DNA from: Pelagomonas calceolata
Taxonomy: Eukaryota
Assembly (NCBI GenBank): GCA_918797485.1
Contig: CAKKNE010000004.1
Coordinates: 868,001 to 932,000 of the forward strand
DNA: 64,000 nucleotides
Direction of reading: 5' to 3'
In this document: piece by piece, positions 31,528-47,690 of the stretch
How positions within the stretch are numbered: position 1 is the first letter of the stretch
How the letters are laid out: the number at the start of each line of letters is the position of its first letter
Translations under genes and position numbers: made by a program
The notes under the pieces: model-generated
Told to the model about the DNA's origin: nothing
What the model saw: the letters and a program-made list of their open reading frames with translations, nothing else
The model's database searches: none

Positions 31528-32955
31528 ATGCTCCGCAAAGCCCTCCTCGCCGCGCTCGTCGCCGCGGCCCAAGCTGCCTCGCTCACGTCCCTCAAGACCA
31601 CGGACGCCGACTTACTGAAGGAGGCGTTTTTTGGCGGCGACTGCTGGACCATCGCGTGCACTGATGTGCATGATAAGAAGACCGGCGCGAATCTGCTCGA
31701 GAAGGCCCTCGACGACGCGAAGGCAGCGAGTAGCTGTCGCGGGGCCTCGCTCCAGTGCGGGAAGAAACTGCCCTCCGGGAAGACGCCGCTCCAACGACTG
31801 GGCATCGAGCCGCCGAAGCAGAAGGGCCATCCCTTACTGATTTTATGCGTCAACGGCGAAGCAAGACCCCTGAACATGGACGAGTACGCGCGCGTCAAAG
31901 AGCAGAGCGCGACGCCCGACGCGCGCGTCCTCTCCAAAACGCTCGTCCAGGCGGGCCTCGCGCCGAAGCCGATCGTCGTGAACGACGATGCAGCGTTCAA
32001 CAGGCAGTGCGCCAACAAGCGCCACTGCCTCGTGGTAAGCTTCAATTCAACGACGAGCGACGTCAAGGCCTTCACGCGGGCGGCAGCTGCTGTTGCCGCT
32101 AAAAGACGCTTGCTGCGCGTCGTGCTGGTGGACGGGAAGCACGGCCACTTATCGCTGCAAAAGGCGCTGCCGGCAAACCCGGCGACCGCGCTCTACGCGC
32201 GGCGCCTCAACGCGAACGAGCAGGCCGCCCTCCAGGCCATCAGCGCCAAGGTCCCGAAGGCGAAAGGGGTTTCGAACGAGCTCCAGGCGTCGGCCTGCGG
32301 CGCGTCCGCGATCGCGGGGCGGGACGCGGAGTCTGCTCATCTCAATTTTGAGAGCAAGCTTATTGGGCCGCGCGATTGGCGGTCCCGTCAGGACGCGGCG
32401 GGGTTGGTCTTCCGGCGGGGCGACGCGTACCTGTCCTACGCGGCCGTGGCGCGGGGCCTCGCGGAGCGCGAACTCTTCGGCTCGGACGCGTCGTACGCGG
32501 CGGCGCATCCGTTGGTGCGGCTCGGCGACACGACCTACACGCACGGCGCCAAGGCGTTCCGCGGTGACGGGTTTGACAGTGCTGCCTTGGACGCGTGGCT
32601 CGGCCCGTTCCTCTCGACAGCGGCGGACGACCGCGCCTTCCTCCAGCTCGGCCTCACGGGCCTCGCGAAGCGCGTCAAGTTCAAGGCGACCTCCTCAAAA
32701 CGACCGACGCCGCGGCCGCGGCCGGCGCGCCGGCCCGCGCCGAAACCGAAGCGCCGCGGCGCCGTCGAGGAGCGCGACCGCCAAAAAGAACGCGCCGAGC
32801 GCGAGCGCGAGCGGCGGGAGCAGATGGACGCGGCGGGCGCGGACCTCTTCGAGACGGTCGAGGTCGGCGCGGACGGCGAGGCGACCGCGGTGGAGGAGGA
32901 GGACGACGACGACGAGGACGACGACGAGGAGGACGAGGACGTGGAGATGATCTAG
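31528..32955 (+). CDS. Secretory-pathway protein, possibly thioredoxin-like fold, with charged/acidic C-terminus
   Basis: Signal peptide MLRKALLAALVAAAQA; CANKRHC; acidic tail ending EDVEMI. Confidence 0.7.
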   Translation: MLRKALLAALVAAAQAASLTSLKTTDADLLKEAFFGGDCWTIACTDVHDKKTGANLLEKALDDAKAASSCRGASLQCGKKLPSGKTPLQRLGIEPPKQKGHPLLILCVNGEARPLNMDEYARVKEQSATPDARVLSKTLVQAGLAPKPIVVNDDAAFNRQCANKRHCLVVSFNSTTSDVKAFTRAAAAVAAKRRLLRVVLVDGKHGHLSLQKALPANPATALYARRLNANEQAALQAISAKVPKAKGVSNELQASACGASAIAGRDAESAHLNFESKLIGPRDWRSRQDAAGLVFRRGDAYLSYAAVARGLAERELFGSDASYAAAHPLVRLGDTTYTHGAKAFRGDGFDSAALDAWLGPFLSTAADDRAFLQLGLTGLAKRVKFKATSSKRPTPRPRPARRPAPKPKRRGAVEERDRQKERAERERERREQMDAAGADLFETVEVGADGEATAVEEEDDDDEDDDEEDEDVEMI

Positions 32956-33304
32956 TTGTGTGGTGTAATTAAACTTAGGAAGTGTCTCTCGCCGGCATTC
33001 TTGGCCCAATCTTGGGAGTGAGTCGCCGCCGCGTCCGCTCTCGTGCGGGTCCATTGTATGAGTTCCGGTGCGCTGCCGGGCCCGGACCTCCTGCGCGCGA
33101 TTCCTGGCGTGCTTTGAAGGGGGGGCTAGGGGGGCCTAGGGTAAGAGCTTGGAGGGGGGGGTCCGTCGATCCACAGCGCCCGAGCACTGCGATCTCGAGT
33201 ACAATCTGAGCTCAGGAGCGTTGCTCTGGTAGCGCTAATCCAGGAGGCAGCTTAAATTTCGCGAACAAGGCAGCCCCGGGAACGCGCAAGAAGGTTGGCA
33301 TACA

Positions 33305-36300
33305 ATGGGCGGCGGTGTCTCATCTCTCCCGGATGAGGTCTCGCTTGCCGAGGCAAAAGAGCTGGCGGGCGCCAGGTGGCAGCCCGCGTGGGAGGAGAAG
33401 TTCGCGGAAGCCAAGATCTCCAGGGACGAGGCGCTGCGATGCTGGACGGAGGCCAGCAGGGGCGCGGACGGCCCGGCGAGCAAGGGCGCGGGGCCGCCGG
33501 ACGAGAGGAAGAAGAAGAAGTCCGCCACCGCGAAAGCGCTATGGCAGAAAGGCGTCGCGAAGGTGGGCTGGATCGCGCACGCGAAGGCGCGGGCGGCGGC
33601 GATCGAGCGCGCCCAAAGGGCAGGCATTTCGGAGCAGCTCTACGAGAAGCTGCACGGCGTCGACCGCTCCGGTGTGGCGGAGGCGCTAGACTTTTCGGCC
33701 ATCATTGCGGAGAAGCGCGGGCAGCACCTGCCCGGCACGCGCGAGTGGGTCTTCGAGGCGGTCATGCGCTGGCGCACGGATCCGGAAGCTGCGAAGCTCT
33801 TCTGGCTCGTCGGTGGCGGCGGCACGGGCAAGAGCGTCGCCGCGGCCGAGTTGCTGGCACGGCTGCTCGACAAAGAAAACGTCGCGGCGTGGCATTTTTG
33901 CAAGCACACCGAGCCGGCGCGGTCCGCTCCAGCGGCGCTGTTGCGCTCCTTAGCCGGCATGCTTTGCGCAACGGTCGAGGGCTTCGAAGACGCCCTGCGC
34001 GAGGGCGGCGGCAGCGACAACGCGACGGACAAGGTCGACGAGCTCTTCCAGGCGCTGATCGCCGAGCCGCTGCAAAACGTCGGGGCGCCCCGCGGCGCGG
34101 ACGACGCCCTCGTATTGATTGTTGATGCGCTCGACGAGCTACCGCGCGACGCGCTGCAACCAGTGTTATCGCTGCTTGCGAACGAGCTCAAGACATTGCC
34201 GCCATGGATTAAACTCGTCGTGACGAGTCGTGATGAAGCTCAAATTAAAGCCAGGCTCTCATGCTTCACGCCGTCGGAGCTGCGCGTCGACGAGGCGCGG
34301 AACCGGCAGGACGTTCGCGCGTACCTGACGGTGCTCGCGAAGGAGCACGTGGAGCTCGAGGTAACGATGGAGTCGCTGCGGCACGAAGTCGAGGTTAAGT
34401 TTCCGGGCCTGAAGAATCTCGACACGTTCGCCGACCTCGAGGACCCGCTGCGCCGGTCGAAGGGCGCGTACGACGAGGCGGTCCGCGGCGTCGCCGGGAT
34501 CCACGAGCTCGAGAAGTATAAGGAGCGACGTCTTGACTTGATACAAGACGAGACTGAATTCGAGAAGCTGTACGCTGACGCAGCTCTGGCGCAGACGATC
34601 TTGATCGACGCACTGAAGACGCTCCCTGGCGACATCTCGGATCCGGGTGTGAAAGGGCGTGGATCCGCGGAGCGCAAGCTCGCGGACAAGTACACCGACA
34701 AGAATGGGGTGCCACATCCCGAGAAGTTTCGGGATCTAGCCCGCGCGACAGTCCTGTTCGAGAACGCCGCCGACCTTCTGAAGGTGCTGACTGAATTGGA
34801 CGGCGGCGGCCTCGGGCTGGAGATCGCTCAATTGAAAAACAAGTTTGCCAGCCCGACGCCGCTAGGCTACCGCGACATGAATTTGAACGTCAGCGTGCGC
34901 CTCGAGGACGGCCGAAAACATCTCGCCGAGGTTCAGCTGAATTTAAGGAGTGTCGCGGACGCGAAACATATCGCCCACGAGCAATACGAAGTTATTCGGC
35001 TCGCGTTGCCGAAGATGTGCGAGGGAACGAGCGTCAAGGCGACCGAGCTTGAGACGTTCATCGCCGAGCGCCTCAACTCGTCGGCGCTCGACGCGGCTGT
35101 CACTTCGCTCGAGCGGAAAGCTGGCGGGCTCATGCTCTACGCGCGCCTCATCGCGGACCAGCTCGCGTCCACGACGGGCAAGATCGACTTTGCGAGCGTC
35201 GGCGCGCTGCCGGCGGGCCTCGACGAGATCTACGCGGAGAACTTTCGGCGCGTGTTCAGTGATGATGGCACGTGGGGCGATGCGCTGCCGCTGGTGGAGC
35301 TCGTGTGTGCAGCGGCAGAGCCGCTCACCGTCGACGCGGCGAGTGGTGCGCTGGGCTGGGATCGAGCGCGGTGCAAGAAGGTCTGTGATAGCGTGTCGCT
35401 GCTGTTCCCGCTGCGCGAGGGCGAGGTGATCGGTGTGCTACATAAGACCGTGACGGACTGGCTGACCGGCGAGAAGCCGTTCGACAAGCGCTCTTCGAAG
35501 GACGCGTTCTTCGTCGCGCGGGACGCGGCGCACCGGCGGCTGGCGCGGGCGTGTGCGAGGGCAATTCGTACTGGGGTTCCGGATACGAAGTCGCACTCGA
35601 GCGACGCTGCCGCAGATGAGGTGCTCGCATCGTTTGTCGAGGGCGAGGGTGGCGTGGCATCAGATGCTTATGCGTTGCGTTGGAGCTTGTTTCATATGAA
35701 GCGATCGGGAAACGAGGGCGAGGCCGTCGCGGTCGCCTGCAGTCTGTCGTATGTGCTGAAGCGGAGTGACGGCGACATTGCTTCCTTTGTGGCGGACTTG
35801 CGTGCTCTGAAGGGTCAAGACACGCTGCTGCTGTCCGACACTTTGGTGTTGTCGCGGAACGCGCTCTCGCAGGGCACGGTGCTTGTCGAGCAGTTCTGGC
35901 AACGTCTGACGCCACGCGCCGATGCGGAATCGTCTCCTGCAGCGCGCCGCATGGCCGACGACGCGAAGCGAGTTGCGAGCAAGCTTCCGCTCTCGGCCGT
36001 GCGTCCGATGGGTCTGACGGCGGCAGGTGGGGCGGAGCGGTGTCGGATCGAGGCTCCGAGAGAAGTGAAGTGCTTGGCGACGTTCGTGGATCCGGCGACG
36101 GGCGAGCCGCGGGTTGCTTGTGGGACGGGCGATCACATGCGTGGCGACGTGCGCGTCTTCGACCCGATCACTGGTGGCGCTGCCTTGGTCGTGATTGATG
36201 TGGGCTCAGAGGTGAAAGCACTGGCGGTCTTCAAAGACGCGGCGACGGGCGAGCCGCGTTTGGCTTGTGGATTATTTTGGGATGGGAAGGTGCTCATCTT

Positions 36301-38815
36301 CGACCCGGTCGCCGGCGGCGAGGAGCTGGTCGTGATCGACATTGGCTCGGAGGTGTTTGCGCTGACGGTATTCACGGACAAGACAGGAGCACAGCGGCTC
36401 GCTTGTGGTGATGCGGACGGAAAGGTGCGCGTCTTCGATCTGGTCGCGGGAGGCGAGGCGCTGGTTGTGCTCGACTTGGACGACTCGGCGAGCGCATTGG
36501 CAGTCTTCACGGACCCGGCGACGGGCGCGCCGCGGCTCGCGTGCGCGTGGACGTCGGGAGAGAAGGTGCTTGTCTTCGACCCGGTCGCGGGCGGCAATGC
36601 GCTGTTCGTGCTAGATATTTGCTCTGATGGGCGGGCGATGGCGGTCGTCCGGGCGATGGCGGTCTTCAAGGAACCAGCGACGAGTGCGCTGAGGCTCGCG
36701 TGTGGCTCTGACGATGGGAAGGTGCGCATCTTCGATGCTGTCTCTGGCGGGGACGCGCTGCTCGTGCTCGACTTGGGGTTCCTAAGAGAAGAAGCGGTGT
36801 ACGCACTGGTCGTATTTAAAGACCTGGCGACGGGTGCGCCGCGGCTCACGAGCGGATCATACAGCGGAAAGGTGCGCGTCTTCGACCCGGTCGCGGGAGG
36901 CGAGGCGCTGGTCGTCCTCGTGGGGCACACAGACCAAGTATACGCTTTAACGGCCTTCGAGGACCCCGCGACGGGCGAACCGCGGCTCGTGAGCGGATCG
37001 GAAGACAATACCGCGCGAGTCTGGAACCCGGCGGCGAACGGCGCGGCGATCGAGGCGGAGCCCGAGGGGCACTCTGACGACGTGGGCGCCCTGGTGACCT
37101 TTGTGGAGCCGGCGACGGGTGTGCTGCGGGTCGCGACCGGGTCCAATGATGAGACGATTCGCGTGTGGAACGCGGAGACTGGCGGTGCACTGCTCGTGCT
37201 CGACGTTGGCTCGAACGTGAGTGCGCTGGCGCTTTTCGTGGACCCGGCGACGGGCGGGCCGCGGCTCGCTTGTGGTTGTGACGATAGGAAAGTGCGTGTC
37301 ATCGACCCGGTCGCTGGCGGCGAGGCGCTGCTCGTGATCGACGTGGGCGAGGAGGTGAACGCGCTGGCATTCTTCGCGGACCCGGCGACGGGCGCGCCGC
37401 GGCTCGCTTGTGGTTGTGACGATAGGAAAGTGCGTGTCATCGACCCGGTTGCTGGTGGTGAAGCGCTGCTCGTGATTGACGTTGACTCAAACGTGTACGC
37501 GCTGCTGGTCTTCGCGGACCCGGCGACAGGTGAATTTCGAATCGCTTGTGTAACCAGCTATTATGGGAAGGCTTGGGTGCGCATCTACAACCCGGTCTCG
37601 GGCGGCGAGGCACTAATCGTGATCGAGGTAGGCTCGATTGTGTGGGCGTTGACTGTTTTCGAAGCCCCGGCGACGGGCGCGCTTCGCCTCGCGAGCGGAT
37701 CGGACGAAAGGGACGGTTCCGTGCGCGTCTGGGACTTGGTCGCGGGCGGCGAGGTGCTGTTCGTGCTCAAGGGACACACATCCCGAATTGAAGCGCTGAC
37801 GACCTTCGCGGACCCGGCGACGGGCGAGACGCGGCTCGTGAGCGGGTCGAAGGACAAGACTTTGCGCGTGTGGGACGCAAACAAGGGTGGTGCGGCGCTG
37901 CGGGTGGTTGCTTTTGATGATTATGTGCGAGCTTTGGCGGTCAGGAGCGACACGAGCGGGCTCTTCGTAGCTTCCGGGAAGCGGTGGGGGGAGTTGCGCG
38001 TCAAGACCACCACCACGCCACTCACGCTAGCATGCTATCAGGGTGATGTCGCCGCAATAAGCGATCTTCTTCAGGAGGGCGCTGGCGTCGACCAGCAAGA
38101 TGATGACGGCTATACGCCACTGTTCGTCGCGAGTTTGAAAGGGCATGTCGACGCCGCGCGCTTGCTGCTTGATGCGGGTGCTACGGTCGATAAGAGGCGT
38201 GAGGGTGATTGGTCGCCGTTTGGTATTGCGTGCGTTCGTGGACATCTCGACGTCGCGACGCTGTTGGTGGAGCGAGGTGCAGCTGTCAATTTGTGCTTGG
38301 ATGGGGAGACGCCGCTTCTTGTTGCTTACCGGAAGGGGGGGCTCGATCTAATGCAGTTATGTCTCGAGCACGGCGCTGATGTGAATTTGGCCGACAAAGA
38401 GGGTACTACGGTTCTGTACGACGCATGCAAAAACGGTCACGTCGGCGCGGCGCGGTTGTTGCTGGACAAAGGAGCGGAGGTCGACCGTGCGGACGAGGAC
38501 GGCTTTACGCAGCTATGGAGAGCATGCAGGGGGGGTCACGTCGACGTGGCGCGGCTGTTGTTAGATAAAGGCGCGGATGTCGATCGGGCGGAGGAGGACG
38601 GATGGACGCCGCTGTTCACCGCCTGCTCGAACGGCCACGTCGAGGTGGCGCGGCTGTTGCTGGACAACGGTGCCGAAGCCGACCGCGTGCGCAACGACGG
38701 CGCGACACCACTCGGCGTGGCTTGCAAGAATGGGCATGGCGACGTCGAGCAATTGTTGCGGGCAAATGGGGCCCAAATCAACGAAGCTGGAGAAGACTCT
38801 GATTGTGATTACTAG
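33305..38815 (+). CDS. NLR-like STAND protein copy A: NACHT/NPHP3-type NTPase with inserted RelA/SpoT-like domain, 14 WD40-like blades, about 7-8 ankyrin repeats
   Basis: MGGGVSS start; GTREWV; Walker A GGGGTGKS (33812); Walker B LIVDALDE (34115); VTSR; RelA/SpoT motifs KGRGSAERK, DLAR, GYRD, EVQL; KAGGLMLYA; LPAGLDEIY; LHKTVTDWL; DPATG repeats; TPL..AC repeats. Confidence 0.9.
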   Translation: MGGGVSSLPDEVSLAEAKELAGARWQPAWEEKFAEAKISRDEALRCWTEASRGADGPASKGAGPPDERKKKKSATAKALWQKGVAKVGWIAHAKARAAAIERAQRAGISEQLYEKLHGVDRSGVAEALDFSAIIAEKRGQHLPGTREWVFEAVMRWRTDPEAAKLFWLVGGGGTGKSVAAAELLARLLDKENVAAWHFCKHTEPARSAPAALLRSLAGMLCATVEGFEDALREGGGSDNATDKVDELFQALIAEPLQNVGAPRGADDALVLIVDALDELPRDALQPVLSLLANELKTLPPWIKLVVTSRDEAQIKARLSCFTPSELRVDEARNRQDVRAYLTVLAKEHVELEVTMESLRHEVEVKFPGLKNLDTFADLEDPLRRSKGAYDEAVRGVAGIHELEKYKERRLDLIQDETEFEKLYADAALAQTILIDALKTLPGDISDPGVKGRGSAERKLADKYTDKNGVPHPEKFRDLARATVLFENAADLLKVLTELDGGGLGLEIAQLKNKFASPTPLGYRDMNLNVSVRLEDGRKHLAEVQLNLRSVADAKHIAHEQYEVIRLALPKMCEGTSVKATELETFIAERLNSSALDAAVTSLERKAGGLMLYARLIADQLASTTGKIDFASVGALPAGLDEIYAENFRRVFSDDGTWGDALPLVELVCAAAEPLTVDAASGALGWDRARCKKVCDSVSLLFPLREGEVIGVLHKTVTDWLTGEKPFDKRSSKDAFFVARDAAHRRLARACARAIRTGVPDTKSHSSDAAADEVLASFVEGEGGVASDAYALRWSLFHMKRSGNEGEAVAVACSLSYVLKRSDGDIASFVADLRALKGQDTLLLSDTLVLSRNALSQGTVLVEQFWQRLTPRADAESSPAARRMADDAKRVASKLPLSAVRPMGLTAAGGAERCRIEAPREVKCLATFVDPATGEPRVACGTGDHMRGDVRVFDPITGGAALVVIDVGSEVKALAVFKDAATGEPRLACGLFWDGKVLIFDPVAGGEELVVIDIGSEVFALTVFTDKTGAQRLACGDADGKVRVFDLVAGGEALVVLDLDDSASALAVFTDPATGAPRLACAWTSGEKVLVFDPVAGGNALFVLDICSDGRAMAVVRAMAVFKEPATSALRLACGSDDGKVRIFDAVSGGDALLVLDLGFLREEAVYALVVFKDLATGAPRLTSGSYSGKVRVFDPVAGGEALVVLVGHTDQVYALTAFEDPATGEPRLVSGSEDNTARVWNPAANGAAIEAEPEGHSDDVGALVTFVEPATGVLRVATGSNDETIRVWNAETGGALLVLDVGSNVSALALFVDPATGGPRLACGCDDRKVRVIDPVAGGEALLVIDVGEEVNALAFFADPATGAPRLACGCDDRKVRVIDPVAGGEALLVIDVDSNVYALLVFADPATGEFRIACVTSYYGKAWVRIYNPVSGGEALIVIEVGSIVWALTVFEAPATGALRLASGSDERDGSVRVWDLVAGGEVLFVLKGHTSRIEALTTFADPATGETRLVSGSKDKTLRVWDANKGGAALRVVAFDDYVRALAVRSDTSGLFVASGKRWGELRVKTTTTPLTLACYQGDVAAISDLLQEGAGVDQQDDDGYTPLFVASLKGHVDAARLLLDAGATVDKRREGDWSPFGIACVRGHLDVATLLVERGAAVNLCLDGETPLLVAYRKGGLDLMQLCLEHGADVNLADKEGTTVLYDACKNGHVGAARLLLDKGAEVDRADEDGFTQLWRACRGGHVDVARLLLDKGADVDRAEEDGWTPLFTACSNGHVEVARLLLDNGAEADRVRNDGATPLGVACKNGHGDVEQLLRANGAQINEAGEDSDCDY

Positions 38816-39007
38816 CTTCGTGCCTTTTAGGTGAGCCTGGTTTGGCTAAGTGTCATTTAAACCAGGGCGAGTCCGTGGCGGCGGCCCGATGGATAGAGTA
38901 GTAGCTAGTTACTCGGGTTTTGGGGACGCTAACCTAGCCCCTTGGGGATGTATGCGCTAGAACCAGGCCACTAAAGGTCCGGATCCGGCGTCTAGAGAGA
39001 AATCCGG

Positions 39008-39195
39008 CAAAAAGAACGCGCCGAGCGGGAGCGCGAGCGGCGGGAGCGGATGGACGCGGCGGGCGCGGACCTCTTCGAGACGGTCGAGGTCGGCGCGGAC
39101 GGCGAGGCGTCCATGGTGGAGGACGACGACGAGGAGGACGAGGACGAGGAGGACGAGGACGTGGAGATGATCTAGTGTGTGGTGTAATTAAACTT
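39008..39195 (+). pseudogene. Orphan duplicated 3' end of the 31528-32955 gene (duplication junction)
   Basis: Near-identical to 32782-32978, including gtggagatgatctag and the 3' flank, with indels; no 5' part present. Confidence 0.85.
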
Positions 39196-39416
39196 AGGGA
39201 GTGTTCTTTTGTCGGCACTCTTGGGAGTGAGTCGTCGCCGCCGGCCGCTCGGAACCATGTCGTGCGGGTCCGTCAATGCTGAAACCACCAGAAGAGCTAG
39301 CGCGCAGTGCCTGCGATCTGAGCTCAGGAGCGTTGCTCTGGTAGCGATAATCCAGTAGGCAGCTTAAATCTCGCGAACAAGGCAGCCCCGGGAACGCCCA
39401 AGAAGGTTGGCACACA

Positions 39417-42400
39417 ATGGGCGGCGGTGTATCATCTCTCCCGGCGGAGGTCTCACTTGCCGAGGCAAAAGAGCTGGCGGGCGCCAAGTGGCAGCCCGCC
39501 TGGGAGGAGAAGTTCGCGGAAGCCAAGATCTCTAAGGACGAGGCGCTGCGATGCTGGACGGAGGCCAGCAGGGGCGCGGACGGCCCGGCGAGCAAGGGCG
39601 CGGGGCCGCCGGACGAGAGGAAGAAGAAGAAGTCCGCCACCGCGAAAGCGCTATGGAAGAAGGGCGTCGCGAAGGTGGGCTGGATCGCGCACGCGAAGGC
39701 GCGGGCGGCGGCCGTCGAGCGCGCCCAAAGGGCAGGCATTTCGGAGCAGCTCTACGAGAAGCTCCACGGCGTCGACCGCTCTGGCGTGGCGGAAGCGCTG
39801 GACTTTTCGGCCATAATAGCCGAGAAACGCGGGCAGCACCTGCCCGGCACGCGCGAGTGGGTCTTCGAGGCGGTCATGCGCTGGCGCACGGATCCGGAAG
39901 CGGCGAAGCTCTTCTGGCTCGTCGGCGGCGGCGGCACGGGCAAGAGCGTCGCCGCGGCCGAGTTGCTGGCACGACTGCTCGACAAAGAAAACGTCGCGGC
40001 GTGGCACTTCTGCAAGCACACCGAGCCGGCGCGGTCCGCTCCAGCGGCGCTGTTGCGCTCCTTAGCCGGCATGCTTTGCGCAACGGTCGAGGGCTTCGAA
40101 GACGCCCTGCGCGAGGGCGGCGGCGGCGACAACGCGACGGACAAGGTCGACGAGCTCTTCCAGGCGCTGATCGCCGAGCCGCTGCAAAACGTCGAGGCAC
40201 CCCGCGACGCGGACGATGCTCTGGTGTTGATAGTCGACGCGCTCGATGAGCTACCGCGCGACGCTTTGCAGCCCGTGCTCTCTCTGCTCGCGAACGAGCT
40301 CAAGACGCTGCCGCCGTGGATCAAACTTGTCGTGACAAGCCGCGACGAAGCTCAAATTAAAGCGAGGCTCTCGTGTTTTACGCCGTCAGAGCTGCGAGTC
40401 GACGAGGCGCGGAACCGGCAGGACGTGAGGGCGTACCTGACGGTACTCGCGAAGGAGCACGTCGAGCTCGAGGTAACGATGGAGTCGCTACGGCACGAGG
40501 TCGAGGCGAAGTTCCCAGGCCTGAAGAATCTCGACACGTTCACGGATCTAGAGGACCCGCTGCGCCGGTCGAAGGGCGCGTACGACGAGGCGGTCCGCGG
40601 CGTCGCCGGGATCCGCGAGCTCGAGAAGTATGAAGAGCGACGTCTCGACTTGATACAAGACGAGACTGACTTCGACAAGCTCTACGCCGACGCATCGCTG
40701 GCGCAGACAATTTTAGTCGATGCGCTGAAGACGCTGCCGGGCGACGTTTCGGATCCGGGCGTGAAAGGGCGTGGATCCGCAGAAAGGAAGCTCGCGGACA
40801 AGTACACCGACAAGAATGGGGTGCCACATCCCGAGAAGTTTCGGGATCTAGCCCGCGCGACAGTCCTGTTCGAGAATGCAGCCGACCTACTGAAGGTGCT
40901 GACTGAATTGGACGGCGGCGGCCTTGGGCTGGAGATCGCGCAATTGAAAAACAAGTTTGCCAGCCCGACGCCGCTAGGCTACCGCGACATGAATTTGAAC
41001 GTCAGCGTGCGCCTCGAGGACGGCCGAAAACATCTCGCCGAGGTTCAGCTGAATTTAAGGAGTGTCGCGGACGCGAAACATATCGCCCACGAGCAATACG
41101 AAGTTATTCGGCTCGCGTTGCCGAAGATGTGCGAGGGAACGAGCGTCAAGGCGACCGAGCTTGAGACGTTCATCGCCGAGCGCCTCAACTCGTCGGCGCT
41201 CGACGCGGCTGTCACTTCGCTCGAGCGGAAAGCTGGCGGGCTCATGCTCTACGCGCGCCTCATCGCGGACCAGCTCGCGTCCACGACGGGCAAGATCGAC
41301 TTTGCGAGCGTCGGCGCGCTGCCGGCGGGCCTCGACGAGATCTACGCGGAGAACTTTCGACGCGTGTTTGTCGGTGATGATGCCTGGCGCGACGCGCTGC
41401 CGCTCATAGAATTAATCTGCGCTGCTGCAGAGCCGTTGACAATTGACGCTGCGAGTGGGGCACTCGGCTGGGATCGGGCTCGATGCGAGCGTCTCTGTGC
41501 TGAGGTATCGCTGCTGTTCCCGCTCCGCGAGGGCGAGGTGATTGGTGTGTTACATAAGACCGTGACGGACTGGCTGACGGGCGAGGCGCCCTTCGATAAG
41601 CGCTGTTCTGAGGACGCGTTCTTCGTCGCGCGGGACGCGGCGCACCGGCGACTGGCGCGGGCGTGTGCTCGGGCGGTTCGTGCTGGGGTTCTGGATACGG
41701 AGTCGCACTCGAGCGACGCGGCTGCTGATGCAACGCTCGTTTCATTCGTCGATGGCGAGAGCGGCGTGGCGGCGGATGCATATGCGTTGCGCTGGTGTTT
41801 GTTTCACATGAAACGGTCTTGTTCTGAGGGCGAGGCCGTCGCGGTCGCATGCAGCCTGTCGTACGTGCGGAAGCGGAGCGACTGCGACATTGTTTCCTTC
41901 GTGGCGGACTTGCGTGCTCTGAAGGGCCAGGATACACTGCTGCTGTCCGATGGATTGGTGTTGTCGCGGAACTTGCTATCACGGGGAGTGCCTCTCATAG
42001 AGCAGCTGTGGCAGCGGCTGGTACCTCGGGCGGATGCCGAGTCGGCCGCGGGTCGCCTGGCCGAGGATTTGCGGCGAGTCGCGAGCAAGCTGCCGCTCTC
42101 GGCCGTGAGGCCGATGGGCTTGACGGTGGCGGGTGGGGCGGAGCGGTGTCGGATCGAGGCTTCGGCTGAATGCTTGGCGACGTTCGTGGATCCGGCGACG
42201 GGAGAGCCGCGGGTTGCTTGCGCGTCTGGAAACGAGGTGAAAATCTATGATCCGGTCGCGGGTGGCGCGGCGTTGGTCGTGATTGATGTGGGCTCTTCTT
42301 TGGTGGTGAACCGCGAGTCCATGGCGGTCTTCAACGACCCGGCGACGGGTGAGCCGCGTTTGGCTTGTGGATGCTCATACAGCGGCAGCGGAAATATATA

Positions 42401-47690: not shown

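What the first reader, a model, noticed from the sequence alone, without database searches (positions are those of the whole stretch)
33305..47690. Eukaryotic NLR-like receptors with a RelA/SpoT alarmone-synthetase-like domain inserted inside the NACHT NTPase
Seen in the sequence: both paralogues carry a NACHT/NPHP3-type STAND core (Walker A GGGGTGKS, Walker B LIVDALDE, VTSR, RQDVRAYL). About 250 aa then intervene (34330-35090; 40440-41200) before the core resumes with KAGGLMLYARL, LPAGLDEIY and LHKTVTDWL. The insert shows, in the right order, motifs matching RelA/SpoT (small alarmone synthetase) nucleotidyltransferases: VKGRGSAERK, DLARATV, LKNKF, GYRDMN, EVQL and HEQYE. Established knowledge: STAND plus WD40/ankyrin proteins are innate-immune or allorecognition sensors (fungal HET-E/NWD, bacterial Avs), with effectors usually at the N-terminus. 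Bacterial toxic SAS enzymes (toxSAS, CapRel) arrest growth during phage defence by making (pp)pApp/(p)ppGpp or pyrophosphorylating tRNA. Inference: a ligand-gated algal immune switch, perhaps against giant viruses, in which NTPase conformational change unleashes an embedded alarmone or toxin enzyme. I know of no description of this architecture, but could not search.
Basis: partly seen in the sequence, partly recalled or inferred. Interest (0 to 1): 0.95.

Follow-up and report, generated by a model that had tools for sequence, protein, structure and literature searches.

The report
Alarmone enzyme nested inside algal NLRs
Two neighbouring, transcribed genes of a marine microalga encode immune-receptor-like switch proteins with a bacterial-toxin-type alarmone enzyme domain, its catalytic residues kept, sitting inside the switch itself; the same layout recurs in diatoms, bolidophytes and haptophytes, and it likely lets ligand binding turn on stress-nucleotide synthesis that would stop or kill the cell.

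Summary
Two intact, single-frame, transcribed tandem paralogues (1836 and 2757 aa) have the layout MGxxxS N-terminus, NACHT (NPHP3_N type), about 14 WD40 blades, ankyrins. About 245 aa sit between the first and second helices of the STAND lid (HD1). The insert models confidently (pLDDT 93) as a RelA/SpoT synthetase fold (Z 12–14). The flanks reassemble into one STAND module like ZAR1, NRC2, Apaf-1 and Avs3. PolyA reads run through the insert with no splice joint. Catalytic residues are kept in 34–37 of 34–37 covered rows. The layout recurs in pelagophytes, Prymnesium, Triparma and Proboscia. The enzyme is nearest to the exported/toxic clade (RelV-type, then Tas1/Apk1), not to CapRel or RelA/SpoT. 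The product is unresolved; (p)ppGpp is slightly favoured. RelA_SpoT is already known as an N-terminal effector of fungal NLRs and is listed for bacterial NACHTs, so this is a new variant of a known kind. The internal position, algal range and two insert classes within one gene family were not found in ten literature searches. Activity, gating and an antiviral role are untested.

The parts
33305..38815 (+). Gene 1 (P0001, 1836 aa): MGxxxS N-terminus, NACHT with nested alarmone-synthetase-like domain, WD40, ankyrins
   Evidence: polyA reads on the + strand over 33214-36200
33305..33694 (+). N-terminal 130 aa: MGGGVS (fits the N-myristoylation consensus, recalled), small helical region, basic patch; no known effector domain
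   Evidence: no Pfam hit; MGxxxS in 13 of 27 N-termini printed
33695..34348 (+). NACHT/NPHP3_N nucleotide-binding domain (Walker A K176, Walker B D277/E278, sensor R309) and first lid (HD1) helix, aa330-348
34349..34537 (+). Insert, helical stalk (aa349-411), specific to this family
   Evidence: helices in both models; lies before the range aligned to most RSH structures
34538..35020 (+). Insert, RelA/SpoT-type synthetase core (aa412-572): K450, K458, D477, R480, K511, Y522, N526, E542, Q544, H558
35084..36049 (+). Remainder of the STAND module: lid helices 2-3 (KAGGLMLYARL), winged helix (H713), helical domain 2
36050..37999 (+). About 13-14 self-similar WD40 blades with variable loops (probable sensor)
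   Evidence: 12 anchored by pattern, one double spacing; 69% identity between paralogues, dN/dS 0.47
38012..38812 (+). Ankyrin repeats (up to 8 Pfam stretches)
39004..39271 (+). Duplicated 3' fragment of the upstream gene (copy of 32778-33052, 85%), marking the tandem duplication
39417..47690 (+). Gene 2 (P0002, 2757 aa): same layout with a much longer ankyrin array (up to 29 Pfam stretches)
   Evidence: polyA reads on the + strand over 39314-42300 at 97% or more identity
40461..41195 (+). Insert of gene 2 (core 40650-41132), 96.5% identical in protein to that of gene 1

Best explanation
These genes encode NLR-like NACHT-WD40-ankyrin proteins with a RelA/SpoT-fold domain of the exported-toxin (RelV/Tas1) clade inserted in the lid subdomain of the STAND module, and this domain is likely an active pyrophosphokinase that the resting receptor would hold shut. 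Shown: the architecture, transcription through the insert, the predicted fold, the conserved catalytic and ATPase residues, and the range across ochrophytes and haptophytes. Inferred: (1) the protein is cytosolic and probably membrane-anchored by N-myristoylation; (2) a non-self or damage ligand binds the variable WD40/ankyrin sensor; (3) the ADP-to-ATP switch, and probably oligomerisation, moves the lid and frees or clusters the attached enzyme; (4) the enzyme transfers pyrophosphate from ATP to a nucleotide 3'-OH, draining ATP/GTP and arresting or killing the cell as an immune response. My odds on the product: (p)ppGpp about 40%, both alarmones 25%, (p)ppApp only 15%, an RNA 3' end 10%, inactive 10%.
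For: Fold and residues. D477/R480/N526/E542/Q544 align to Apk1 D327/R330/N370/E382/Q384; R330, N370 and E382 are named as active-site residues in PMC12691689 section 5, and mutating the equivalent SaEAS Asp (D121A) inactivates that enzyme. Eighteen positions were mapped; the catalytic ones are kept in 34-37 of the 34-37 rows that cover them among 37 STAND-embedded rows. dN/dS between the paralogues is 0.08 in the core and 0.03 in the NBD. Reassembly of the STAND module: model pTM 0.79; ZAR1 153-383 and NRC2 152-378 align about 220 residues over model range 1-501, skipping the insert; Avs3 and Apaf-1 align over 1-697. No N-terminal effector domain is present in the window's proteins, which leaves the insert as the only recognised enzyme besides the ATPase. 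Related enzymes are toxic in the cytoplasm whichever alarmone they make (PMC12691689 abstract and section 5). A phage relative (36% identity) is followed by an HD_4 alarmone-hydrolase-like gene. The sensor is the most variable part (WD40 60-73% identity).
Against: No activity, ligand, oligomer or infection data exist here. The window's insert has no Pfam RelA_SpoT hit, and family members stay under the cut-off (22-24 bits against 27). The canonical Syn1 arginine is replaced by G448, although Apk1 has Pro there. The same domain family occurs in many non-STAND eukaryotic proteins (EF-hand, ion channel, E2, TPR fusions; 36 of 150 hits have room for a flank but show none), so it may be a general signalling module and not an immune effector. 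The genes are transcribed in ordinary culture samples, which says nothing on defence. WD40 dN/dS of 0.47 is relaxed, not above 1. No hydrolase gene was found among 18 long ORFs of the window. Prymnesium members carry an additional N-terminal EEP enzyme that could be their effector.
Confidence: 0.55

Rival explanations
1. The receptor makes an alarmone as a second messenger (stress, nutrient or calcium-linked signalling), not as a killing effector.
For: The same eukaryotic domain clade is fused to EF-hands, an ion-channel domain, an E2 and transporters in dinoflagellate-type proteins. ppGpp is a regulator in algal plastids (PMC10107265 passages). The genes are transcribed without known challenge.
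Against: The enzyme comes from a clade of unregulated, toxic synthetases. The gene family shows tandem duplication, variable repeats and two insert classes, typical of conflict genes. No cytosolic alarmone receptor was looked for or is known to me.
Confidence: 0.22
2. The insert is an integrated decoy or nucleotide sensor, as with integrated domains of plant NLRs: it binds a pathogen protein or nucleotide and triggers the switch, and signalling leaves by another route.
For: It sits on the lid, where binding could move the switch. The insert is far more divergent between pelagophyte classes (58-64%) than its flanks.
Against: Catalytic residues are almost invariant across lineages, the core is under purifying selection between the paralogues, and the window's proteins have no other recognised output domain.
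Confidence: 0.1
3. The enzyme modifies an RNA 3' end (tRNA pyrophosphokinase, as CapRel and FaRel2 do) and shuts down translation.
For: CapRel aligns at Z 11.3. A translation block is a plausible antiviral output.
Against: Identity is 14% to CapRel and 17% to the FaRel2-type entry 8pu1 (Z 5.9), against 29% to Tas1. Neither appears in the profile search of the PDB. A close phage relative is paired with an alarmone-hydrolase-like gene.
Confidence: 0.08
4. The apparent insert is an assembly, annotation or splicing artefact, or a dead passenger.
For: No whole genome was available to check the assembly. A stretch of about 450 bp is 99-100% identical between the paralogues, which could be collapse or gene conversion.
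Against: Reads cross the insert with no joint. Transcriptome-derived proteins from other organisms contain it (P0006, P0205, P0105). The layout is kept at 28-55% identity across lineages.
Confidence: 0.03

Closest known systems
Fungal NLRs with an N-terminal RelA_SpoT effector (RelA_SpoT-NACHT-WD40; Dyrka et al. 2014, PMC4986451; 17 cases in Sordariales, bioRxiv 10.1101/2024.11.26.625400)
   Same: A NACHT switch with WD40 sensor joined to a RelA/SpoT-type synthetase in a eukaryote; proposed, untested effector.
   Different: There the domain is N-terminal and detected by Pfam. Here it is inserted within the lid, falls under the Pfam cut-off, and occurs in algae. Whether the fungal domain belongs to the same enzyme clade was not tested.
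Exported alarmone synthetases: RelV/VpEAS ((p)ppGpp), SaEAS (both), Tas1/Apk1 and Apk2 ((p)ppApp) (PMC12691689, PMC10083569; PDB 6OX6, 8VX3)
   Same: Same fold, the DLAR arginine, and catalytic D/N/E/Q. RelV-type proteins score 93-130 bits against profiles built from the algal family, Tas1/Apk1 46-54 bits, RelA/SpoT under 8. KN and GYRD-N motifs are shared with the RelV type.
   Different: No signal peptide, secretion domain or adjacent immunity gene. The enzyme is embedded in a eukaryotic receptor behind a helical stalk.
Bacterial NACHT/Avs antiphage receptors (Kibby et al., bioRxiv 10.1101/2022.07.19.500537; Avs3 PDB 8DGC)
   Same: STAND switch with enzymatic effector; alarmone synthetases are listed among bacterial NACHT effector classes. 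Avs3 is the best STAND structural match (Z 13.7, 364 aligned, rmsd 13).
   Different: In the passages read, only transmembrane segments are described as inserted in the NACHT module. No STAND-plus-insert protein was found in 401 Pseudomonadota genomes sampled.
CapRel / FaRel2 toxSAS (PDB 7ZTB, 8PU1)
   Same: A synthetase-fold toxin held off until a viral trigger; conceptual parallel.
   Different: Distant in sequence (14-17%); the sensor there is a fused or separate antitoxin, not a STAND ATPase; substrate is tRNA.
HET-E/NWD-type and Apaf-1-type NACHT/STAND-WD40 receptors
   Same: STAND module followed by about 14 self-similar WD40 blades; Apaf-1 aligns over the whole model; nearest Atlas clusters are fungal NPHP3_N/NACHT proteins (score 0.90).
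   Different: These signal through an N-terminal domain and have an uninterrupted lid.

Membership tests
STAND/NACHT NLR-like receptor | NACHT NBD with Walker A, Walker B and sensor arginine | tested here: met
   NPHP3_N 85-88 bits (cut-off 24.8), NACHT above cut-off; K176 18/18, D277 and E278 23/23, R309 25/25
STAND/NACHT NLR-like receptor | Helical lid (HD1) and winged helix with conserved His after the NBD | tested here: met
   Flanks align to NBD+HD1 of ZAR1 and NRC2 and to the whole modules of Avs3 and Apaf-1; H713 25/26; the lid is split by the insert
STAND/NACHT NLR-like receptor | C-terminal superstructure-forming repeats | tested here: met
   WD40 and ankyrin
STAND/NACHT NLR-like receptor | N-terminal effector or adaptor domain | tested here: not met
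   aa1-132 has no Pfam hit; the candidate effector is internal. The N-terminus was not folded separately.
STAND/NACHT NLR-like receptor | Ligand-triggered nucleotide exchange and oligomerisation | not testable with these tools
   needs biochemistry
RelA/SpoT homologue synthetase (SYNTH) | SYNTH nucleotidyltransferase fold | tested here: met
   Z 14.2, rmsd 2.1, 129 aligned to SAS2; top 11 entries all RSH; Foldseek probability 1.0
RelA/SpoT homologue synthetase (SYNTH) | Catalytic Asp and Glu and ATP-binding K/R/N/Q | tested here: met
   against residues named in PMC12691689
RelA/SpoT homologue synthetase (SYNTH) | Canonical Syn1 arginine (SAS1 R46) and Pfam PF04607 gathering score | tested here: not met
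   G448 at that position, Pro in the Apk1 homologue; no Pfam hit for the window's insert, 22-24 bits in Prymnesium members. RelV-type proteins also fall under the cut-off.
RelA/SpoT homologue synthetase (SYNTH) | Pyrophosphokinase activity | not testable with these tools
   needs an assay
Exported alarmone synthetases (RelV/Apk1/SaEAS clade) | Sequence affinity to the clade above long RSH and RelP/RelQ | tested here: met
   tree (deep nodes weak, 80-86)
Exported alarmone synthetases (RelV/Apk1/SaEAS clade) | Signal peptide or secretion-system domain | tested here: not met
   the domain is internal to a NACHT protein; none seen
Fungal RelA_SpoT-NACHT NLRs | RelA_SpoT domain N-terminal to the NACHT | tested here: not met
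   order NBD, insert, lid/WHD with no violation among 41 hits that carry a flank
Fungal RelA_SpoT-NACHT NLRs | Same enzyme subfamily | not tested
   no fungal RelA_SpoT-NACHT sequence was fetched
CapRel/FaRel2 tRNA pyrophosphokinases | Close sequence or structural affinity and tRNA substrate | tested here: inconclusive
   Z 11.3 at 14% (CapRel) is within about 1-3 of the best matches; substrate not testable
Plastid long RSH (RSH1-4) | HD plus SYNTH domains with a plastid transit peptide | tested here: not met
   no HD domain; bacterial long RSH score under 8 bits; algal RSH sequences themselves were not compared

The most novel reading that the evidence does not exclude
A widespread, undescribed class of algal immune receptor in which a bacterial toxin-type alarmone synthetase was captured once, grafted into the moving lid of the STAND switch, and is now swapped between paralogues as a cassette: ligand binding directly fires cytosolic (p)ppGpp or (p)ppApp synthesis and aborts infection in bloom-forming and open-ocean phytoplankton. 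It would be the first regulated cytosolic alarmone synthetase in a eukaryote.
Probability: 0.4. Interest if true: 0.92.

Novelty: new variant of a known kind. Interest (0 to 1): 0.76.

Why it matters
Alarmone signalling in eukaryotes is established only inside plastids. Reviews read here state that no cognate eukaryotic cytosolic synthetase is identified (PMC8118318) and that (p)ppApp has not been reported in plants or algae (PMC10107265). These proteins give a concrete, expressed candidate with a built-in switch. They would also show a different way to wire an NLR, with the effector riding on the lid instead of the N-terminus. Intracellular immunity in pelagophytes, diatoms and haptophytes is poorly known, and this family offers a simple biochemical readout.

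Tried and rejected
No whole genome is held for the window, so copy number and a genome-wide hydrolase search were not possible. The window's insert alone gives no hit in Pfam, NCBIfam or PADLOC; single-sequence PDB search gave only YwaC at E 0.015. Alignments A2 and A4 were too divergent for pattern scans of viral contigs; a single-protein scan found 1 phage contig among 28 candidate stretches and no giant-virus contig. Foldseek against viral models gave mostly phage proteins; giant-virus rows had E 4e-3 or worse, so no viral link is shown. The phage collection gave one weak match (E 3e-3); plasmids gave one Photobacterium record. No insert-free close relative of this NACHT was retrieved, because all three protein searches were driven by the insert; the insertion site rests on structural alignment and the split lid profile. 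A binding prediction was not obtained; no binding claim is made. Run X13 (metatranscriptome contigs, share 0.23) was laid but is not used as evidence. One 83-base skip in gene 2 (42159-42243, 3 reads, CT..AA) is outside the insert and non-canonical; I read it as a paralogue's reads. The first tree lacked an outgroup and its scoring profile contained bacterial rows; it was replaced. P0017 was left out of the NBD identity range (66-69%, probably a broken prediction). Ten literature searches found no description of a RelA/SpoT domain inside a NACHT module or in algal NLRs; subscription journals are mostly not covered, and supplements were not read (those of bioRxiv are closed), so supplementary architecture tables, for example of Kibby et al., could list it.
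Full report
Observation. The stretch holds two uninterrupted ORFs on the + strand, 33305-38815 (1836 aa) and 39417-47690 (2757 aa). Pfam finds NPHP3_N at aa144-309, NACHT, WD40 and ankyrin repeats; after the insert it finds, weakly, only the last part of an AAA lid profile (positions 39-92 of 96, aa591-644, E 0.048). The two genes are a tandem duplication that also copied the 3' end of the upstream gene (32778-33052 to 39004-39271, 85%). Named relatives at 62-95% identity over the insert are from Pelagomonas calceolata, so the host is probably a pelagophyte. No whole genome was held.

The insert is in the mRNA. Raw polyA reads from four runs of one sample (6-12% of each run read) lie on both genes in the sense expected for + strand transcripts. 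In the deepest run the insert bins of gene 1 have depth 9.5-22.5 against 3.5-27.9 in the flanks, and no joint is reported. Gene 2 gives the same picture at 97% identity, with no joint in the insert (three raw-read runs). The core is nearly identical between paralogues, so reads there cross-map; the region just upstream, 85-89% identical, is covered in both genes. Transcriptome-derived proteins from other organisms also contain the insert (P0006, P0205, P0105).

The insert is a RelA/SpoT synthetase fold. Alone it has no Pfam, NCBIfam or PADLOC hit. A 32-row profile of the core matches Tas1 (E 6e-12), YwaC/SAS2 (3e-8) and SaEAS (2e-4) and nothing else under E 0.5. The model of the insert (pLDDT 93.3, pTM 0.88) returns RelA/SpoT-family entries in all of the first 11 places among 48,161 chains: SAS2 Z 14.2 (rmsd 2.1, 129 aligned), RelP 13.2, SAS1 12.9, Tas1 12.3 (29% identity, the highest), CapRel 11.3 (14%); the next entry is Z 6.2. 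The core is aa412-572, preceded by a helical stalk.

The flanks form one STAND module. A 697-aa model of NBD, insert, lid and winged helix has pLDDT 88.4 and pTM 0.79. ZAR1 (153-383) and NRC2 (152-378) align about 220 residues across model positions 1-501, which is what the two flanks add up to without the insert; Avs3, Apaf-1 and an archaeal STAND align across 1-697, with high rmsd (13-14) as expected for mobile domains. The break lies between the first lid helix (aa330-348) and the second (aa594-606). I retrieved no insert-free close relative, so the site rests on these alignments.

Catalytic residues are intact. Aligned with a 460-aa PAAR-fused Apk1 homologue whose numbering matches the literature, D477, R480, N526, E542 and Q544 correspond to D327, R330, N370, E382 and Q384 (PMC12691689 section 5). 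Among 37 STAND-embedded rows these and K450, K458, K511, Y522, D524 and H558 are kept in 34-37 of the 34-37 rows that cover them; Walker A/B, sensor and winged-helix residues are likewise kept. dN/dS between the paralogues is 0.08 for the core, 0.03 for the NBD and 0.47 for the WD40 region. Against this, the canonical Syn1 arginine is replaced by glycine; Apk1 has proline there.

Which enzyme clade. Profiles built from the algal family score small bacterial synthetases of about 260 aa, most with a hydrophobic N-terminus, at 93-130 bits, Tas1/Apk1 at 46-54 and RelA/SpoT under 8. One of these small proteins is from Photobacterium damselae. I call them RelV-type from the description in PMC12691689 (Sec-signal synthetases of Vibrio and Shewanella) and from recall; the named V. 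cholerae or V. parahaemolyticus sequences were not in hand. Bacterial toxins with eCIS or deaminase domains score as high. In a 58-row tree the 19 STAND-embedded domains fall on one side of a 96/92 branch together with 10 other eukaryote-type domains; deeper nodes are weak. In this clade VpEAS and RelV make (p)ppGpp, SaEAS both alarmones and Apk1/Apk2 (p)ppApp, and those tested are toxic in the cytoplasm. The algal insert shares the KN and GYRD-N motifs with the RelV type, not with Apk1, which tilts the odds to (p)ppGpp but does not settle them.

Range. The insert matches 992 clusters at 50% identity (E up to 0.001). Of the best 150, 13 show both STAND flanks 249-284 aa apart, 28 show one flank, 36 have room for a flank but show none, and 73 are short pieces; the order is never violated. 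Named carriers are Pelagomonas calceolata, Prymnesium parvum, Triparma laevis, Proboscia alata and, with the C-terminal flank only, Proboscia inermis. In 401 Pseudomonadota genomes sampled, 15 had a match, all to the core or the WD40 part and none to a STAND-plus-insert protein. Within pelagophytes the insert comes in two classes 58-64% identical, while the flanks are 77-98% identical and do not sort cleanly by class.

Mechanism. I read these as ligand-gated receptors whose output is the nested enzyme. The N-terminus fits the myristoylation consensus (recalled; 13 of 27 N-termini printed) and has no known effector domain. The WD40 and ankyrin arrays are the variable part. The lid moves with the nucleotide switch in STAND proteins (established knowledge), so a domain hung on it could be occluded at rest and freed or clustered on activation. 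The product would drain ATP and GTP. Architecture, expression, fold and conservation are shown; activity, gating, toxicity and a defence role are inferred. I put the whole chain at 0.55. The main rival is second-messenger signalling (0.22), supported by fusions of the same domain to EF-hands and channels. Nothing here links the genes to giant viruses.

What is known. [quoted passage not shown] Alarmone synthetases are listed among effectors of bacterial NACHT proteins, and transmembrane segments as occasional inserts (bioRxiv 10.1101/2022.07.19.500537, passages). Divergent synthetases were noted in diatoms without this layout (PMC3153485, passages); a diatom RSH survey has no mention of NACHT, WD40 or RelV (PMC6881373, term search and passages). 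Also read as passages: PMC8118318, PMC10083569, PMC7591505, PMC10107265, PMC8195603 (nothing relevant); PMC12691689 abstract, sections 5 and 9 and passages. Ten searches found no synthetase inside a NACHT module and no algal case; supplements were not read. Earlier scan notes record a bacterial NACHT with a separate synthetase gene and other eukaryotic or viral synthetases; these were not checked and are leads only.

Verdict. The feature is real and well supported. It is a new variant of a known kind: an NLR-like receptor with an alarmone-synthetase-type effector, unusual in carrying it inside the switch, in its toxin-clade origin and in its spread across major phytoplankton groups. Interest 0.76.

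Noticed in passing
P0001-P0010, P0017, P0021 (relatives of window 34349-35083): Pelagophyte family members carry two insert classes: cores are 88-98% identical within class A, 78-88% within class B and 58-64% between them, while NBD (81-98%) and lid/winged helix (77-95%) do not sort cleanly by class. This suggests cassette exchange or homogenised flanks. Some rows are metagenome predictions and could be chimeric, but the gap holds among isolate-derived rows.
   Followed up: partly
P0012, P0013, P0087, P0260-P0262 (Prymnesium parvum): Members add an N-terminal ubiquitin-like domain and an EEP phosphoesterase ahead of the split NACHT: two enzymes on one receptor.
   Followed up: no
P0121, P0127, P0159, P0173: These group inside the eukaryotic clade and keep stalk and core; some keep a lid-like helix, with no recognisable STAND; two end in LRR or ankyrin repeats. 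They may be derived receptors that lost the ATPase.
   Followed up: partly
P0188, P0210, P0207, P0122, P0186, P0165: The same synthetase family is fused to EF-hands, an ion-channel domain, a ubiquitin-conjugating domain or a BCCT transporter; two are named as dinoflagellate-lineage proteins.
   Followed up: no
L022:10-4002: Phage contig: portal gene, then a 510-aa protein with the same synthetase subfamily, then an HD_4 hydrolase gene, a layout like Apk2-Aph1.
   Followed up: partly
L005:2501-4411: Photobacterium damselae has two tandem 263-aa RelV-type synthetases; database entries of the first are named phosphoribosylglycinamide formyltransferase, apparently wrongly.
   Followed up: partly
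window 34805-35254 versus 40917-41366: About 450 bp are 99-100% identical between the paralogues, with no change at all over aa573-640, while neighbouring DNA is 72-89% identical: recent gene conversion or local assembly collapse.
   Followed up: no
window 33710 and 39821: RNA reads with loose ends here point to further expressed paralogues with different N-termini. A NCBI Pelagomonas calceolata copy appears split in two models on one contig (P0018, P0014).
   Followed up: no
window 43610-43700: Gene 2 has a long acidic (D/E) run inside a WD40 loop, and further acidic runs among the ankyrins.
   Followed up: no
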